64,000 bases of DNA, from the NCBI GenBank assembly GCA_951406725.2, contig OX597827.1:12958001-13022000 (forward strand), given 5' to 3'. Below are positions 9,725-57,431 of this stretch, piece by piece. The notes beneath the pieces are model-generated. The model did no database searches. It was not told the DNA's origin and was given only the letters and a program-made list of their open reading frames with translations. The stretch comes from Octopus vulgaris (lineage: Eukaryota). Numbering within the stretch: position 1 is the first letter of the stretch; every line of letters begins with the position of its first letter. A program made the translations under genes and the position numbers.

Positions 9725-10036
9725 TAATAATAATAATGATAATAATAATTTCTACCAAGGGCAGAAGGCCTGAAATTTGGGGGGATTGGACTAGTCCATT
9801 ACATCGACCCCAGTGTTTCACTGGTACTTAACTTATTGACTCTAAAAGGATGAAAGGCATAGTCGACTTTGGCAGAATTTGAACTCAGAACTTAGTGGCA
9901 CAAATCTGTGAAAAAGGTAAACCCAGCAAGACATGGTGGTCAAATATGATCTTCGGTTGTTGAGTCACATGGAGGCAATTACAAATGACCAACCACTAAT
10001 GACCAATTACAAATAACCAAATGACCAACACTGCTT

Positions 10037-10440
10037 TTTTTATTGCCTACAAGGGGCTAAACATAGAGGGGACAGACAAGGACAGACAAAAGTATTAAGT
10101 CGATCACATTGGCCCCAGTGCATAACTGGTACTTAATTTATCGCCCCCGAAAAAATGAAAGGCAAAGTCAACCTCGGCGGAATTTGAACTCAGAACGTAA
10201 CAGCAGACGAAATACCTATTTCTTTACTACCCACAAGGGGCTAAACACAGAGAGGACAAACAAGGACAGGCAAACGGAATAAGTCGATTATATCTACCCC
10301 AGTGTGTAACTGGTACTTAATTTATCACCCCAGAAAGGATGAAAGGCAAAGTTGACCTTGGCGGAATTTGAACTCAGAACGTAACGCCAGACGAAATACC
10401 ACTAAGCATTTCACCTGGCGTGCTAACGTTTCTGCCACCT
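10037..10440 (-). mobile_element. SINE family B dimer (Meta/MESC-like central domain)
   Basis: Two tandem units of about 175 bp containing gactttgcctttcatcctttcggggtcgataaattaagtacc. Confidence 0.85.
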
Positions 10441-10682
10441 AGCCACCATGACCAACACTTCTGGCAATTTGCTGTGTTTGAGAAGATACATCACACTACA
10501 TGAAATCATGATCATGGCCAGTACCAGTGACACATAAAAGGCATATGTGCTGCTGTCAGGTAAAAAGCACCCACTACACTCTGTAATATGGTTGGTGTGC
10601 GGGTATCCAGCCATAGAAATCAAGCCAAAACAGATAACTGGAGCCTGGTGCAGATCTCCGGTTTACCAACTCCAGTCATACC

Positions 10683-11096
10683 TATTTCTTTACTACCCAC
10701 AAGGGGCTAAACACAGAGGGGACAAACAAGGACAGACAAAGGGATTAAGTCAATTAATTCGACCCCAGTGCGTAACTGGTACTTAATTTATCGACCCCGA
10801 AAGAATGAAAGGCAAAGTGGACCTTGGCGGAATTTGAACTCAGAATGTAGCGGCAGACGAAATACTTATTTCTTTACTACCCACAAGGGGCTAAACACAG
10901 AGGGAACAAACAAGGACAGACAAAGGGATTAAGTCGATTACATCGACCCCAGTGCGTAACTGGTACTTAATTTATCGACCCCGAAAGGATGAAAGGCAAA
11001 GTGGACCTTGGCGGAATTTGAACTCAGAACGTAACGGCAGACGAAAATACTGCTCAGCATTTTGTCCGGCGTGCTAACGATTCTGCCAGCTCGCTG
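10683..11096 (-). mobile_element. SINE family B dimer with 11-bp TSD
   Basis: ccagtcatacc at 10672-10682 and 11097-11107. Confidence 0.9.
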
Positions 11097-18229: not shown

Positions 18230-20256
18230 GTTGTTGTTGTTGTTGTTATTATTATTTAGCTTTCAATAATCATATATAAATAGACTCCATATCATCAGGT
18301 ACACCTACAAGTTTCTGTGGTGTGCTAAGCATTGTCTCTTAGAAGAATATGATTGTGTATGATACATGTGTTACTTTGTTCTGTACAAAATTGTATTTCC
18401 ATTCTATGATTCTGTCAGCAAGCTTATGTTCTATTAAGGAGATTTAATCAGCCTGAAACATAGTCAAAGTTGTCTTCCTTACTTGCCGAGCTTATTAAAA
18501 TAACATTAGACATTGATTTGATATTGCCGTTTCCTTAAATACGTAATTTTTTTTTCTTCGTTTTCTAATTAGAATTTTAGATGTTCATTTCATTGAATAC
18601 ATTAACAATAATTTAACTCTCCAATAAAGTAGATGATAAGAACAGAAATTTTGACGGCAACAAGATAAGGATCAGTCTCTGTCTATTCTGTGTAATTACA
18701 TATGGAAATATACAGAATAGAAGATATAGAAATATGCAGATTAATTACATTACATAGTGAAATATTTAGTAACATTTAGCAAATATGTCACCATTTTGCA
18801 CCAAGAATATAATAAGTATATACAATGTAGAAGCTGGAAATACTGTGTTAAATGTAATATGAATGATAATTGTTTTACTTTTTACTTTTTACTTTTGCTT
18901 TTTGTTTTTATTTTTTCTCTTTTTTCTTGTTGTTTTTGTTTTTGAAACAAAACTAAACACACTAACAGTAGTAAACAGTATAAGAACTAATGGTCTATAT
19001 CGATTCATTAGATGGAAGAGAAGCAGACTATTAGGAAGTGCCAAAGGAGTTAATAAAATAAAGCTTTACTTCAAACATAAATTTTTGTCCTTTTATCTTC
19101 TACATAATTAACTATTTCTGTCCATTACAATAAAACTTACACTTTACCTATATCACTGTATCGAATATCAAAGAGAAGTTGTTTAATTTTTATTTATTCA
19201 TTTATATTTATTCGTTTGTTGTTTACCTTGTAGTTTATGGATTGCAAAGAAAAACAACAAATCAATCCAACGAAAGAATTATTTTTGTTTTGTTTTTTGT
19301 TTCGTTTTTGTTTTTGTTTTTGTTTTCAAATTATTTTTCAATCCATTAAAAAATAAAACATATTCAGCTTCAAAATTAATAGAAACCAGGAATTAAATAA
19401 CACATATTTTATTCAATTTTTTTTTGGTGATGCTATAAACAAGATACAGCATAAAAAGAAATATAGTTTAAGAGATGTATCCAATAAACAGTGAAGAGAT
19501 TCAGTAATTCGGAGATTCAGATTCATTATAACCCCAACACAGGATATTCTGCTTATTGCTTCTTTATCTGAAGTGTTGAACTAAACTTGAATAAAATGCT
19601 TGATCAGGAAATTATCAGGAGATATAAATACAGAGTTTGTTTGTAAGGTTTCTTTTGTGGCAAATAACAGACCTATGACATCAAAGGTCTATTTGAAAGA
19701 TGGAATAGAGAAATAGTGTTCATCAAAGTTGAAGCAATGAATGTATAGAGAGCTTATTGTGACTCACTTGACAACTGAACGGAAATACCATTTCTTCTTT
19801 CTTTGATATCTTAATTACAAAAATCCGTAATGGCAGGAAGTCTTTTGTATTTGAATAGCAAGAATTACAACTGTATTTTTGGTAGCCTTTTTTAGCTGCG
19901 ACTAAATTATCTGCATCACTTTAGGAAAGTGAGCAGCAGTTCTCTTGATATCTTTCTTCTTTTCAAGTGTCTTTTAGCTGTCTTTCTGTTTCTCTTTTAA
20001 GAGGAATATTACAAAGAGATTGTCTGCTGTGATGGCAATATATATTGAGAGCAATCGCTGTGTCTGATGTCTTTGGTAGTTACCGGCACTGACCAACTAC
20101 GATGCCAGAAATATGACACAAGAAGACAGAGAGAAAATGTTTGATTATAAAGATATGAAATATACTCCCAAAGAATTTACTTCAACATGATATATTGTTA
20201 CATATATTTGTGTTTATGTGTAAGAAAGAGTGAAACAGCAAGAAAAAGAGAGGAAG

Positions 20257-23199: not shown

Positions 23200-23663
23200 A
23201 AAATTTGAATTATAACGTCGGATGTAATCAATTGAACCACACGTGTATTTATCGTTATGGTAAAATCTGGCGTGTGATTGAGTGGATTTCATCCAGATAG
23301 TTTTGGCTGAGGAGCTACAAGTGGATTTTTTGTAAGTAAAATTACATTTAATTCATTAATAGCGAAACAATTGTCCCAAAATAATCTGTATTTTTGTTAT
23401 TTTTTATTTGCCCTGTTCGTGTGAGCTAACAATCGTACTGACTTTCATGGGAAACATGTATTTTTGTGGTTGAAACCTTTTGGATTAACTAGTGCTAGAG
23501 TGAGCCATATAGTGACCACTCTCTTATATTTATTTTTGTATAAAATATTATAATATATTATAAAATATTATAATAATCCAGGTTTCTCGGAGCACTGGGC
23601 CACTTGGTGTTGAATAGATATACTATTAAATTAGTATCTAATTCTCTCACCCTTATTAATTAA
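23200..23663 (+). mobile_element. (TA)n-embedded HHR-bearing non-autonomous element (Penelope-like/retrozyme-like)
   Basis: Unique block between TA tracts containing an intact HHR; sequence 3' of the HHR is homologous to 39424-39470. Confidence 0.7.
23296..23386 (+). ncRNA. Type I hammerhead ribozyme, intact core, predicted GUC cleavage after 23375
   Basis: gatagTTTTGG-CTGAGGA-GCTA...TAGC-GAAA-CAATTG-TC-CCAAAAtaatc; all three helices pair; helix III palindrome ACAATTGT. Confidence 0.85.
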
Positions 23664-23684
23664 TTATGCATATATATATATATA

Positions 23685-46183: not shown

Positions 46184-46527
46184 CTGTTGTGTCTGGGGAG
46201 AGTCATTTTCTTTTTGTGCCTTATTATTTAACACACTCACCAGTAAAATTTCCACTTTTTTCTTATTTTTATTTTCCTAAAATTTTTGTTGCGTGTTGCA
46301 ACCTTTTCAATAGTTTTGACTTTGTCTGTTATTTACACTGCATTCCCTTTTGTTTGTTTGCGCGCATGTGTGGGTCAGTAAAAATAAGAAAAAAGTGGAA
46401 ATTTTACCGGTGAGTGTGTTAAATAATAAGGCAGAAAAAGAAAATGACTCTCCCCAGACACAACAGAATATGCTTCAACACACGAACTCATATAAAGAAT
46501 CTTGCAAACCAAATCCAAAAACGAAAT
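46184..46527. mobile_element. Inverted-repeat element (arms about 88 bp, 46184-46466) with a possible 61-bp tail
   Basis: ctgttgtgtctggggagagtcattttc.../...gaaaatgactctccccagacacaacag; ataaagccagaac at 46172-46184 and 46528-46540. Confidence 0.75.
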
Positions 46528-48120: not shown

Positions 48121-48370
48121 TAGGAAGAATCTACAAAAAAGACAAAAGATGAAGACAGGTGGTGTAGACAACAAACTGATGTATTAGTATAACACTCGGG
48201 AAGTGAAAAAGTCGTTAATGTTTCAAGCCTATGCTCTTCCACAGAAAGGAACACAGAAATAATCAGAGAGAGAAAATAAAGAATGTGTAATGTCTAGTGA
48301 GCTATCATGCCAAATGCTGGACAGAAGGGTCACATAGGAGAGCTAGAGAGAAGTGGGGATAATAAAGTAG
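48121..48370 (-). mobile_element. TA-anchored element with minimal HHR-like motif (CTGTNGA variant) at 48213-48248
   Basis: Homologous to 49149-49620, 50330-50520 and the stub at 56915-56960. Confidence 0.7.
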
Positions 48371-48379
48371 TATATATAT

Positions 48380-48826
48380 ATATATACACACACTTTTACC
48401 ATTTTGAAAATCAGCACATGTTTTCACAGCGTATGTACTAGCAAAAATGCATGTGTGCAACAAACTTGAAAAAAATTGTCTTACCTCCAGGGAGAACATC
48501 TGAAAGATGAAATACCTAGAAAGGGATAATGTGGTACCGGTTTCAGATTTTTCAAGATATGTCTGCACACATATACTTGATTATCTTCATCAGCCAACAT
48601 ATACCTCGACAACATTTCAAATGTTGCCGCATCAATGCCAATACACTCGACTGAAACACCAAAACGCTGACAGAACGAGAACAGTGAAGAAGTTTCAATA
48701 AAAATAGTAATGCAATACGAGAGTATTGCTTTCCAGTAAAGAATAGCCCGTGAGGGAAAATTATACATAGAAGTAAATATATACACACACTTTTACCATT
48801 TTGAAAATCAGCACATGTTTTCACAG
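48380..48826 (-). mobile_element. Retrozyme-like unit: 397-bp monomer with 50-bp terminal redundancy and one HHR
   Basis: Identical atatatacacacacttttaccattttgaaaatcagcacatgttttcacag at 48380-48429 and 48777-48826. Confidence 0.75.
48529..48600 (-). ncRNA. Type I hammerhead ribozyme, intact core, predicted GUA cleavage between 48535 and 48534
   Basis: Minus strand ATGtTGG-CTGATGA-AGATaaTCAAGtATATGTgtgcagACATATCTTGAaaaATCT-GAAA-CCGG-TA-CCACAT; long helix II, palindromic ACCGGT helix III. Confidence 0.88.
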
Positions 48827-48878
48827 GGTCTTCTCATAAGACTGAGAGAGATAGTTGAGTTTAACCCTAGGTGTTAAG

Positions 48879-48934
48879 AGTTACTGATGAGGATTAAGAT
48901 AGGATACATCAAAATCCAAAATTGCGATCTGGCT
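48879..48934 (+). ncRNA. Type I hammerhead ribozyme relic (G12A) in element about 48827-49118
   Basis: AGTTA-CTGATGA-GGATT...AATCC-AAAA-TTGCGA-TC-TGGCT; both defects fit CpG decay (CGAAA, ATCGCGAT). Confidence 0.7.
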
Positions 48935-49116
48935 ATATACGATGAGGACTTACCTCCCTTTGTCAATCATTAAGACAGTGCTTTTGTGGCTTTTGAGCTG
49001 TTTCAAGTCTCATTTTTAGCAAAAGTGATGCTAATCAGTAGTCTCAGTCACTTTTGTGACCTCTATTAATTTTGCATTTAGGTTCTAATTGCTAATAAGT
49101 CACCCTTTTTAATTTG

Positions 49117-49152: not shown

Positions 49153-49620
49153 AGAATTCATAAAAAAACAAAAGATGAAGACAGGTGGTGTAGGCAACAA
49201 ACAGATGTGTTAGTATAACACTCAGGAAGTGAAAAAGTCTTTAATGTTTCGAGCCTATGCTCTTCCACAGAAAGAAACAAGGAGAGAAAATAAAGAATGT
49301 GTAGTGGCTAGCGATCTACCATGGTGAATGCCAGGCAGAAACGTCACACAGGAGAGCTAGGGAGAAGTGGAGATAATAAAGTAGTGTTGATCCCAAAACG
49401 AAGGTGTGCATGCGTGTGTATAAGAGAGTTTGTATGAGCATGTGGAAGAGGGCTGGTGACCTTGACGTGTGCATGTGCGTATGTGTAGGTGTGAAAATGT
49501 GGGTCTGGGAAGTAGTCAGTGCTGATGTGTGCATGGTGGTGTGTTGTGATGTGATGTGTTGTGTGGTATGGTGGTGTATGGTGTAGTGGTGTGTGATGGT
49601 GTTGGGAGGTGGGGAGGTGA
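49149..49620 (-). mobile_element. TA-anchored element with minimal HHR-like motif at 49239-49274
   Basis: Minus strand CTTT-CTGTGGA-A-GAGC-atag-GCTC-GAAA-CAT-T-AAAG. Confidence 0.7.
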
Positions 49621-50329: not shown

Positions 50330-50520
50330 AGGGGAGTTTACAAACAAAAACAACAAAAGACGAAGACAGGTGGTGTACAAAACAAACAGATGTAGTAATT
50401 AGTATAACGCTCAGGAATAGAAAAAGTCTTTTACGTTTCGAGCCTACACTTTTCTACAGAAAGGGACACAGAAAAAAACAAGGAGAGAAACAAGGAGAGA
50501 AAAAAGGAGAGAAAAAAAGG
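50330..50520 (-). mobile_element. TA-anchored element with minimal HHR-like motif at 50428-50463
   Basis: Minus strand CTTT-CTGTAGA-A-AAGT-gtag-GCTC-GAAA-CGT-A-AAAG. Confidence 0.7.
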
Positions 50521-51595: not shown

Positions 51596-52425
51596 GGGTG
51601 AGCTGGCAGAAACGTTAGCACACTGAGCAAAACGCTTAGTGGTACATCGTCTGCCGTTACGTTCTGAGTTCAAATTCCGCCGAGGTCGACTTTGCCTTTC
51701 ATCCTTTCGAGGTCGATTAAATAAGTACCTATTTCTTTACTACCTACAAGGGGCTAAACACAGGGAGGACAAATAAGGACAGGCAAATGGATTAAGTCGA
51801 TTATATCGACCCCAGTGCGTAACTGGTACTTATTTAATCGACCCCGAAAGGATGAAAGGCAAAGTCGACCTTGGCGGAATTTGAACTCAGAACGTAGCGG
51901 CAGACGAAACACCGCAAAGCATTTCTCCCAGCGTGCTAACGTTTCTGCCAGCTCACCGCCGATTAAATAAGTACCACTTACGCACTGGGGACGATATAAT
52001 CGACTTAATTCGTTTGTCTGTCCTTGTTTGTCCCATCTGTGTTTAGCCCCTTGTGGGTAGTAAAGAAATAGGTATTTCGTCTGTCTTTACGTTCTGAGTT
52101 CAAATTCCGCCGAGGTCGACTTTGCCTTTCATCCTTTCGAGGTCGATTAAATAAGTACCAGTTACGCACTGGGGACGATATAATCGACTTAATCCGTTTG
52201 TCTGTACTCGTTTGTCCTCTCTGTGTTTAGCCCCTTGTGGGTAGTAAAGAAATAGGTATTTCATCTGTCGCTACGTTCTGAATTCAAATTCCGCCAAAGT
52301 CGACTTGGCCTTTCATCTTTTCGGGGTTGATAAATTAAGTACCAGTTGCGTACTGGGGTCGATCTAATCAACTGCCCCTCCACTCCTCCAAAATTTCAGG
52401 CCTTATGCCTGGAATAGGAAAGAAT
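51596..52425 (+). mobile_element. SINE B tandem array with an antisense SINE B (51730-51960) nested inside
   Basis: gattaaataagtacc duplicated at 51715-51729 and 51961-51975. Confidence 0.9.
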
Positions 52426-55024: not shown

Positions 55025-55754
55025 AAGAAAGGATGCTTTCATTGGACTGACCACTACATTGCCTATAGCCAATTATTGTTGCCTGGATTCCATCTTTCTT
55101 CGTTTAATGTTGGATTTCGATGCTTCAGTCTGAGCACTAATTGGCTGTATCTATCACATACCTTTTTGACATACTCTTACCCATTACACGCACGCACACA
55201 CATGCATGCATAAATATATTTACATTGTAAAAATATGTAATTATTTGCATTGCACAATTTGTTTTCCAGTGGCATTCACAAGTAATATATGGACTGGTAC
55301 TTGTAGCAATATCTTCTCTCATCTTCCTTCTTCTACTATAAAAAGAAATATATATACCGAAGATTTGCTGCCTTTGCTACTATTGATGCCTCTTTCAACT
55401 TCTGAAAGTTTGTGAAGTGCTTTTGCAAAAGAGATGAGACATTACCACTGCTTTAGCTTCCTCATATTCCTGTATCTCATCATTTTGGTATTTTGTGATG
55501 ACCTTTGGAAAGGATGTTGGCAGTTGAGGTAATATGCTTGTTATTGATTTAGTATGATTTTTCTGCAATGTAAACCTATTAAGTAAATAAATAATAATAA
55601 AACTGAACAGAGTGGACATCATAAAAGCAATAAGTACATGCGCTACATTACTACTGTTCCCTTTTTAAAATGGACAAAGGATAGAGCAACAGAACTTAGG
55701 ACAACCAGAAAGCTGCACATAAGGCACAGCACACACCACACTAAAAGTAATACC

Positions 55755-56157
55755 TATTTCTTTATTACCCACAAGAGGCTAAACACAGAGGGGACAAACA
55801 AGGACAGACATAGGTATTAAGTCGATTACATTGACCCCAGTGCGTAACTGGTACTTAATTTATCGACCCCGAAAGGATGAAAGGCAAAGTCGACCTCAGC
55901 GGAATTTGAACTCACAACGTTGCGTCAGACGAAATACCTATTTCTTTATTACCCACAAGGGGCTAAACACAGAGGGGACAAACAAGGACAGACATATGTA
56001 TTAAGTCGATTACATCGACCCCAGTGCGTAACTGGTACTTAATTTATCGACCCTGAAAGGATGAAAGGCAAAGTCAATCTCGGCGGAATTTGAACTCACA
56101 ACGTAAGGCAGACGAAATACCACTAAGCATTTCACCCGGCGTGCTAACGTTTCTGCC
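55755..56157 (-). mobile_element. SINE family B dimer with 11-bp TSD
   Basis: aaagtaatacc at 55744-55754 and 56158-56168. Confidence 0.9.
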
Positions 56158-56882: not shown

Positions 56883-57431
56883 TTATATATATATACATAT
56901 ATATATATATTTATAGGGGGGAATTCATGAAAAAAACAAAAGACGAAGACAGGTGGTGTATATATATATACAGACATATATGCATATATTATATTTCCTA
57001 TTATTATATTATTATATATTTCCTACATATTATAGTGCCTCTTTGAAATATGTACATTGCTGAAAGTCTGCTTGTCTGCTAAAGTGTGACATTTGTCTTG
57101 AGATAGTATCACTTATAGACATGTAGTGATAAAAGTCACAGAAATACATGAGAAGTAAACAAAAGTCACCTAGCTGCAGTAGTGACATTGATGAATGCAT
57201 CTTTAGACTTTGTCAATACCAAGTATCCACTAACAATACCATGTTAAGATTAAATTCAGTGTCTATTGATATAGAAAGGCAGTGATTGGAAAAAAAATCA
57301 TTGATTTTGCAATTAGTATACCTATTTAACAATGACTGTTAGAAGAAAGAATACTCAGTACGATAGGAGAGATAAATTATATTTTTACTTCAGTTGAATC
57401 AGTCAATTGATACTCTGAGTTTTGCCTGTGG

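What the first reader, a model, noticed from the sequence alone, without database searches (positions are those of the whole stretch)
48380..48826. Candidate retrozyme: 397-nt monomer, 50-bp terminal redundancy, intact HHR
Seen: an exact 50-bp direct repeat 397 bp apart enclosing one perfect HHR (15-bp interrupted helix II, ACCGGT helix III, GUA site), an adjacent hairpin CGGCAACATT-tga-AATGTTGTCG, and no credible ORF. Established: metazoan non-LTR retrozymes are HHR-containing monomers of a few hundred nt that form circular RNAs and integrate as partial tandem repeats. Inference: a 1.13-mer cDNA copied from a circular or multimeric RNA of about 397 nt. Identical repeats suggest a young insertion.
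Basis: partly seen in the sequence, partly recalled or inferred. Interest (0 to 1): 0.85.

Follow-up and report, generated by a model that had tools for sequence, protein, structure and literature searches.

The report
Truncated retrozyme copy, Penelope-style insertion
This is a broken 360-base piece of a 428-base ribozyme-bearing jumping repeat sitting between two copies of duplicated host DNA; its relatives carry the insertion footprints of Penelope-like retrotransposons, which likely copy it from a circular or multi-unit RNA.

Summary
The sequence facts hold: exact 50-bp repeat 397 bp apart, type I hammerhead (HHR) on the minus strand, no ORF. The reading does not. The 50 bp are duplicated target DNA from an older repeat, not terminal redundancy. 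The true unit is 428 bp; the window holds positions 1-361, a 0.84-mer that is probably dead.

The family is real: 72 exact 21-mer hits, partial tandems to 1.56 units, sister subfamilies to 2.65 units. HHR helices covary and helix III stays palindromic at four lengths, as a dimeric ribozyme needs. Copies end at two fixed sites 64 nt apart in (TA)n, with variable 5' ends and inverted arms: Penelope-like (PLE) hallmarks. In 34 of 35 classifiable two-armed insertions, one arm uses each site. Units within one insertion are homogenised.

Best reading: a non-LTR retrozyme family mobilised in trans by a PLE, likely from a circular or multimeric RNA. Cleavage, circles, expression and the helper are untested. 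New member of a known kind.

The parts
48423..48782 (-). Fragment (unit positions 1-361 of 428) of the HHR tandem-unit family A; 347 bp (48430-48776) lie outside the duplicated target; the last 67 nt of the unit are missing
   Evidence: 97.8% identical to the natural monomer in L004; family matches end at query 44 and 403
48380..48429 (+). Target duplication, left copy: TA/CA simple repeat plus about 40 bp of host repeat family B; ends in a 5-nt microhomology with the unit (48423-48427)
48777..48826 (+). Target duplication, right copy; begins with a 6-nt TA microhomology with the unit's 5' end (48777-48782)
48529..48600 (-). Type I hammerhead: helix I strands 48600-48594 and 48534-48529, core 48593-48587, helix II 48586-48545, palindromic helix III 48541-48536, predicted cut 48535/48534
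   Evidence: covariation across families; cleavage untested
48607..48629 (-). Hairpin upstream of the HHR
   Evidence: present; only 80% of cells paired across families, with two pairs broken in half or more of the rows
48698..48782 (-). The two family-wide 3' end sites (unit positions 21 and 85, about 48762 and 48698); here they lie internally, at the fragment's 5' end
48479..48487 (-). Splice-donor-like motif about 50 nt after the cut site, kept in sister subfamilies; use as a splice site untested
   Evidence: the likeness to PLE pLTR introns is inference
48387..49113 (+). Host element: one copy of older repeat family B (about 335-bp tandem unit, decayed HHR near 48880-48935), interrupted by the insert

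Best explanation
The window holds a truncated 360-bp piece of a 428-bp protein-less hammerhead repeat between two copies of a 50-bp target duplication, and the family likely moves as a non-LTR retrozyme that borrows the reverse transcriptase-endonuclease of a Penelope-like element. Predicted cycle: a multimeric transcript is cut by dimeric hammerheads paired through the helix III palindrome, and the monomer is probably circularised. The PLE protein cuts (TA)n DNA and starts reverse transcription internally at two fixed sites 64 nt apart. Copying on past one unit gives 1- to 2.65-unit tandems; when both DNA ends prime, one uses each site and the two cDNAs join head to head. The window copy is an aberrant single-arm product, likely primed in non-TA host DNA through a 5-nt microhomology and closed at a TA tract 50 bp away. 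It has one HHR, lacks 67 nt and has both start sites at its 5' end, so it likely cannot regenerate the unit.
For: SHOWN. Period 428. 72 exact hits of an internal 21-mer, 0 for the control. In 72 family loci, 3' ends cluster at unit positions 21 and 85; 98 of 101 such ends have (TA)4 within 40 nt; 5' ends are scattered. Head-to-head insertions: 28 of 29 classifiable use one site each, of 36 such loci with 7 unclassifiable (binomial p 1e-7 against 0.5). Also 6 of 6 two-armed sister loci. Twelve loci carry two HHR cores 427-433 nt apart, the longest about 2.65 units. Units within a dimer average 98.3% identical against 93.4% across dimers (11 loci). At polymorphic sites, same-strand halves differ at 13/134, opposite arms at 15/216, different insertions at 18955/55186. 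Helix III is a perfect palindrome in 55/73 (A), 11/15 (older family D) and 17/24 (sisters) motifs, at lengths 6, 8, 10 and 12. Helices I and II show both-side changes. The monomer folds with z -5.6 linear, -6.3 as a circle and -3.4 antisense. The genome holds an intact TA-flanked 764-aa RT + GIY-YIG PLE family with its own minimal HHR and two 3' ends 38 nt apart, heterotypic in 2 of 2 two-armed cases. ESTABLISHED: PLE RT starts at two internal sites and extends both strands (PMC11167929); inverted pLTR and tail (PMC3846280, PMC8557442); retrozyme circles (PMC7229834).
Against: No cleavage, circle or transcript was shown. No sequence-related autonomous partner was found in 46 GIY-YIG loci drawn from 148 listed matches, so the helper is inferred. 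The young subfamily has no copy with two complete HHRs among 72 loci (longest 669 bp), so its source dimer was not seen. One CpG change recurs in the upstream unit of three dimers (L145, L147, L152; reversed in L156), which a linear master would also give; 7 of 31 shared non-CpG variants in family A sit in one unit only. HHR mutants did not affect PLE insertion in vitro (PMC11167929), and 8 of 9 Xenopus dimers did not cleave (bioRxiv 10.64898/2026.07.22.740005). Covariation counts sequences, not events, across a few related subfamilies. A 50-bp duplication is unique among the 71 loci tested.
Confidence: 0.7

Rival explanations
1. Same family and helper, but the template is a linear read-through transcript of genomic dimers or trimers; no circle is involved and the ribozyme is incidental to movement.
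For: Genomic 2- to 2.65-mers exist. Two young copies extend upstream past the cut site (L006, L018), so uncut templates are used. One recurrent directional CpG difference. HHR cleavage was dispensable in vitro (PMC11167929).
Against: Subfamily-specific changes, including helix III length, are shared by both units of each dimer although related families differ by up to about 30%. Linear inheritance would let the units drift apart unless they are re-tandemised each cycle. Uncut templates fit a ligated circle equally well.
Confidence: 0.25
2. The unit is simply the pseudo-LTR of an autonomous PLE that was not found; the copies are 5'-truncated stubs of that element.
For: All insertion hallmarks are those of PLEs. 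Donor-like motifs flank the HHR as in PLE pLTR introns. Only 46 GIY-YIG loci were examined.
Against: Upstream of each unit lies another unit, TA or unshared flank. Frames of 150 aa or more were read by eye, not scanned; none adjoined a unit as an RT gene. Older family D, about 70% identical, aligns across the whole circular permutation and is also tandem. A conserved stem spans the arbitrary unit boundary.
Confidence: 0.12
3. One reading: a 397-nt monomer copied 1.13 times, with 50 bp of terminal redundancy.
For: Exact 50-bp repeat around one HHR.
Against: No family copy among the first 30 loci joins the 50 bp to the unit; the one longer match (L009, query 29-403) has a different flank, and L024 has a separate 35-bp match. 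The 50 bp belong to family B. The period is 428.
Confidence: 0.01
4. For this copy only: the 50-bp duplication arose by templated double-strand-break repair or a later rearrangement of a normal TA-anchored copy, not by staggered PLE nicks.
For: Microhomologies at both junctions; a 3' end at neither fixed site; no other long duplication among 71 loci.
Against: The 5' junction at unit position 1 through TA is common in the family (8 of 118 runs). PMC7229834 notes that metazoan retrozyme TSDs, when present, exceed 4 bp.
Confidence: 0.35

Closest known systems
Metazoan non-LTR retrozymes (Cervera and de la Pena 2020, PMC7229834; parts 2-4 of 6 read), especially mussel 350-390 bp and axolotl 330/350 bp units
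   Same: ORF-less, low-GC, type I HHR with short palindromic helix III, tandem units, well-folded monomer, co-occurrence with PLEs
   Different: 428 nt, at the upper end of their 150-450 bp range; long 15-bp helix II; dispersed 1- to 2.65-mers rather than long arrays; fixed 3' ends, TA targeting and inverted arms; RNA not shown here
PLE pseudo-LTR insertions with inverted repeat and tail (PMC3846280 and PMC8557442, passages; PMC4209133, part 1 of 4)
   Same: Partial tandems, head-to-head inverted arm, tail at one end only, microsatellite targets, HHR needing a dimer
   Different: No ORF seen; the unit repeats onto itself; tail 64 nt rather than 30-40; canonical C3-G8 core
Anolis Poseidon PAc in vitro mechanism (PMC11167929; parts 1-2 of 4 read)
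   Same: Two internal RT start sites downstream of the HHR, AT-rich targets, both strands extended, predicted protein dimer
   Different: That paper saw no difference in start site between strands; here 34 of 35 two-armed insertions use one site each
Retrozymes as non-autonomous PLE derivatives (bioRxiv 10.64898/2026.07.22.740005; parts 1-3 of 5 read)
   Same: Same conclusion on origin and helper; monomer-like solo derivatives are common
   Different: They found pLTR sequence homology in Xenopus; none was found here in 46 PLE loci. They did not analyse insertion ends in the parts read

Membership tests
non-LTR retrozyme (family level) | Type I HHR with conserved core | tested here: met
   (25 of 30 copies match the full pattern)
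non-LTR retrozyme (family level) | Units of 150-450 bp in tandem copies, each with an HHR | tested here: met
   period 427-433; 12 loci with two cores, in sister subfamilies 82-91% identical; the young subfamily reaches only 1.56 units
non-LTR retrozyme (this copy as an active element) | Two consecutive units with complete HHRs | tested here: not met
   0.84 unit, one HHR; it is a truncated derivative
non-LTR retrozyme (family level) | No protein-coding capacity | tested here: met
   (frames read by eye, not scanned against Pfam); LTR/PBS/PPT motifs were not searched
non-LTR retrozyme (family level) | Stable self-paired monomer | tested here: met
   z -5.6 linear, -6.3 circular
non-LTR retrozyme (family level) | Self-cleavage of the RNA | not testable with these tools
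   needs in vitro transcription
non-LTR retrozyme (family level) | Expression as circular and linear monomers | tested here: inconclusive
   only contigs from runs guessed to be RNA were available; they cannot show ends or circles
PLE-mobilised element | Fixed 3' ends with optional tail, variable 5' truncation | tested here: met
PLE-mobilised element | Partial tandem and inverted 5' arm; AT-rich or microsatellite target | tested here: met
   36 of 72 loci head-to-head; 98 of 101 ends at (TA)n
autonomous PLE or its attached pLTR | RT + GIY-YIG ORF joined to the repeat | tested here: not met
   none seen in fetched A, D or sister loci; no pLTR homology in 46 GIY-YIG loci; search incomplete

The most novel reading that the evidence does not exclude
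The family's footprints record a rule not found stated in the papers read: a dimeric Penelope RT primes the two ends of a cut (TA)n target at two different fixed sites, one each, on a circular retrozyme RNA, so that the tail, the inverted arm and the multimers all come from one two-headed rolling reaction. This would join retrozyme circles to PLE internal initiation, with an intact candidate helper in the same genome to test it.
Probability: 0.4. Interest if true: 0.62.

Novelty: new member of a known kind. Interest (0 to 1): 0.38.

Why it matters
The single copy is a dead fragment and matters little. The family matters modestly. How metazoan retrozyme circles are primed and integrated, and by which helper, is left open in PMC7229834. 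Here the insertion ends point to a PLE, give two exact priming sites, and show a near-strict one-site-per-arm rule (34 of 35). An intact 764-aa PLE with the same end pattern is present, so a trans-mobilisation assay like that of PMC11167929 can be designed directly. The palindrome series (6, 8, 10, 12 nt) is natural evidence that these hammerheads are kept as dimers.

Tried and rejected
Rfam at gathering thresholds: no hit in the window. Expression: no RNA holder is on record; contigs of three runs guessed to be RNA cover parts of the unit, with no joints or end clusters; this is no evidence either way. Empty allele: four runs (two guessed DNA, two of unknown kind) were laid on 48140-49110; the TA tract was skipped and no contig spans a junction, so the test is uninformative. 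A loose end was followed as a possible autonomous continuation: 4 one-mismatch hits, none near a unit; rejected. The 5.3 kb between mirrored copies in L110 is a mirrored duplication holding long frames that looked by eye like another non-LTR element (not scanned). A unit relative near the PLE in L191 lies about 600 bp away behind other repeats and is taken as coincidence. Apparent upstream/downstream differences at unit positions 309-319 were alignment artefacts, so the 139 vs 34 count for sisters is not relied on. The tail-region fold is conserved but has little covariation (3 of 30 pairs, term -0.91), so it is not claimed as proven. Rows dropped before counts: 17 duplicate loci; L019 (near-duplicate of L017); L110 counted once; L025 and L055 not head-to-head; L154 left out of dimer comparisons. 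Literature: searches showed no paper describing this family or the one-site-per-arm rule; PMC13282606 (passages) has no 'ribozyme' or 'retrozyme'; PMC7229834 has no 'octopus'. No supplements were read, and repeat libraries in them may already hold this unit. Earlier scan notes by sequence and place were empty.

Full report
1. Observation. The 50-bp repeat is exact (48380-48429, 48777-48826). The minus strand carries a type I hammerhead with core at 48593-48587, a 15-bp interrupted helix II, the palindrome at 48541-48536 and a predicted cut at 48535/48534. A strict descriptor finds 2 such motifs in the window and none in 200 shuffles. Rfam finds nothing at gathering thresholds. The one 103-aa stop-to-stop frame looks like nothing by eye. 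The genome has 2.8 Gb in 227 contigs. That it is an octopus is my recall from its size and repeats; no call names it.

2. The repeat is target DNA. Family copies match only window 48423-48782. The stretch from 48787 runs on into the right flank in an older repeat, family B: the 39 other best places scored start at query 8-23 and run to 185-214 at 81-86% identity. The alignment shows no break at 48826/48827, and none of 19 B loci contains the insert. The insert therefore landed in a B copy and duplicated 50 bp, with a 6-nt TA microhomology at its 5' end and a 5-nt one at its 3' end. No other long duplication was seen in 71 loci. An empty allele could not be tested.

3. The real unit. Other copies have 67 bp more and repeat with period 428. 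The window holds positions 1-361. An internal 21-mer has 72 exact hits and the control none; this is a lower bound. I examined 73 non-duplicate loci (72 after dropping L019), chosen by likeness to the window copy or by that 21-mer. Runs reach 669 bp (1.56 units). A gapped pattern then found 12 loci with two cores 427-433 nt apart, in sister subfamilies 82-91% identical, up to about 2.65 units; that search selects for dimers. An older family at about 70% identity aligns over the whole permutation and is also tandem.

4. The ribozyme is under constraint. Across 32 distinct sequences, 86.8% of cells pair against about 35% for slid controls, and helices I and II show both-side changes. These are a few events among related subfamilies, not independent counts. 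Helix III is a perfect palindrome in 55/73, 11/15 and 17/24 motifs of the three sets, at 6, 8, 10 and 12 nt. Position 17 alternates between A and C. By the established double-hammerhead model (PMC4209133, part 1 of 4 read), this predicts cleavage as a dimer. The monomer folds better than its shuffles (z -5.6; circular -6.3, antisense -3.4). Cleavage itself is untested.

5. Insertion footprints are those of PLEs. 3' ends cluster at positions 21 and 85; 98 of 101 lie at (TA)n; 5' ends vary. Thirty-six of 72 loci are head-to-head pairs. Of 29 classifiable, 28 use one site each (p 1e-7 against 0.5), whereas the 34 single arms favour site 21 by 26 to 5, with 3 other. Six of six two-armed sister loci agree. 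A tail on only one inverted pLTR is described qualitatively (PMC3846280 and PMC8557442, passages). Two internal RT starts with both strands extended were shown in vitro (PMC11167929, parts 1-2 of 4). PMC3846280 offers a rival reading of head-to-head structures, self-priming on an antisense template. The arms here mostly have unequal lengths and join within a few bases, which fits two priming events at least as well; that is inference.

6. Template. Halves of one insertion differ at 3.0% of sites, opposite arms at 3.5% and different insertions at 5.1%; at polymorphic sites the figures are 13/134, 15/216 and 18955/55186. Dimer units are 98.3% alike within and 93.4% across loci. The tandem is thus likely rebuilt from one unit at each cycle, as a circle would do. 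Against this, one CpG change recurs in upstream units of three dimers, 7 of 31 shared variants in family A sit in one unit only, and a linear multimer with template jumps is not excluded. The data cannot tell one RNA molecule from one source locus. Sequencing contigs gave no information on RNA.

7. Helper. A GIY-YIG search listed 148 matches from 150 scored of 6136 candidates. I examined 46 loci. Fourteen of the 16 widened ones hold a 781-codon frame. The one scanned matches GIY-YIG above the Pfam cut-off and RVT_1 just below it. The family is TA-flanked, has a minimal HHR and two 3' ends 38 nt apart, heterotypic in 2 of 2 two-armed loci. It shares no sequence with the unit, so it is a candidate only.

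8. This copy. Its 5' junction type is common in the family (8 of 118 runs start at position 1); its 3' end is aberrant. It likely arose by priming through the 5-nt microhomology, or by repair. With one HHR, 67 nt missing and both start sites at its 5' end, it likely cannot regenerate the unit. It is among the least diverged copies (0.8% vs median 1.7% over 80 segments).

9. Verdict. The family works like, and meets the testable definitions of, metazoan non-LTR retrozymes (PMC7229834, parts 2-4 of 6 read). It fits the view that these are non-autonomous PLE dependants (bioRxiv 10.64898/2026.07.22.740005, parts 1-3 of 5 read). The copy fails the two-unit test for an active element. Six searches showed no description of this family or of the one-site-per-arm rule; supplements were not read. 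Two earlier scan notes on other genomes reach similar PLE readings; they are unchecked leads, not support. New member of a known kind; interest 0.38, carried by the family-level mechanism rather than by this copy.

Noticed in passing
window 23200-23670: Another TA-flanked element with a type I HHR on the plus strand (core at 23307, palindromic helix III), a different family.
   Followed up: no
window 48126-48365, 49153-49379, 50344-50490, 56930-56960: Repeat family C next to TA tracts; by eye it carries a decayed minus-strand HHR-like motif, probably PLE terminal repeats.
   Followed up: no
window 48387-49113; L032-L050: Host family B is itself an approximately 335-bp tandem unit with an HHR-like core, partial tandems and inverted arms; copies 77-86% alike.
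   Followed up: partly
window 46184-46271 and 46379-46466: 88-bp inverted arms, 98% complementary, 107 bp apart.
   Followed up: no
L187-L201, e.g. L189 778-4780: Young intact PLE family: 781-codon open frame (764 aa from the ATG) with RT and GIY-YIG matches, TA-flanked, U3-A8 variant minimal HHR whose position 17 is U in many copies, two 3' ends 38 nt apart.
   Followed up: partly
L115-L144: Older family D, about 70% identical to the unit across its whole length, also partial tandem.
   Followed up: yes
L110 (G000:C11:84626000-84635900): Mirror duplication of about 2.6 kb at 99.7% identity containing two unit copies; a recent inversion or an assembly artefact.
   Followed up: partly
family A, unit positions 294-307 and 395-405: 5' ends cluster here; the second cluster coincides with one arm of an 11-bp internal inverted repeat, suggesting template switching.
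   Followed up: partly
window 10035-11051, 51960-52373, 55749-56121: Several two-copy tandems of a 184-bp repeat.
   Followed up: no
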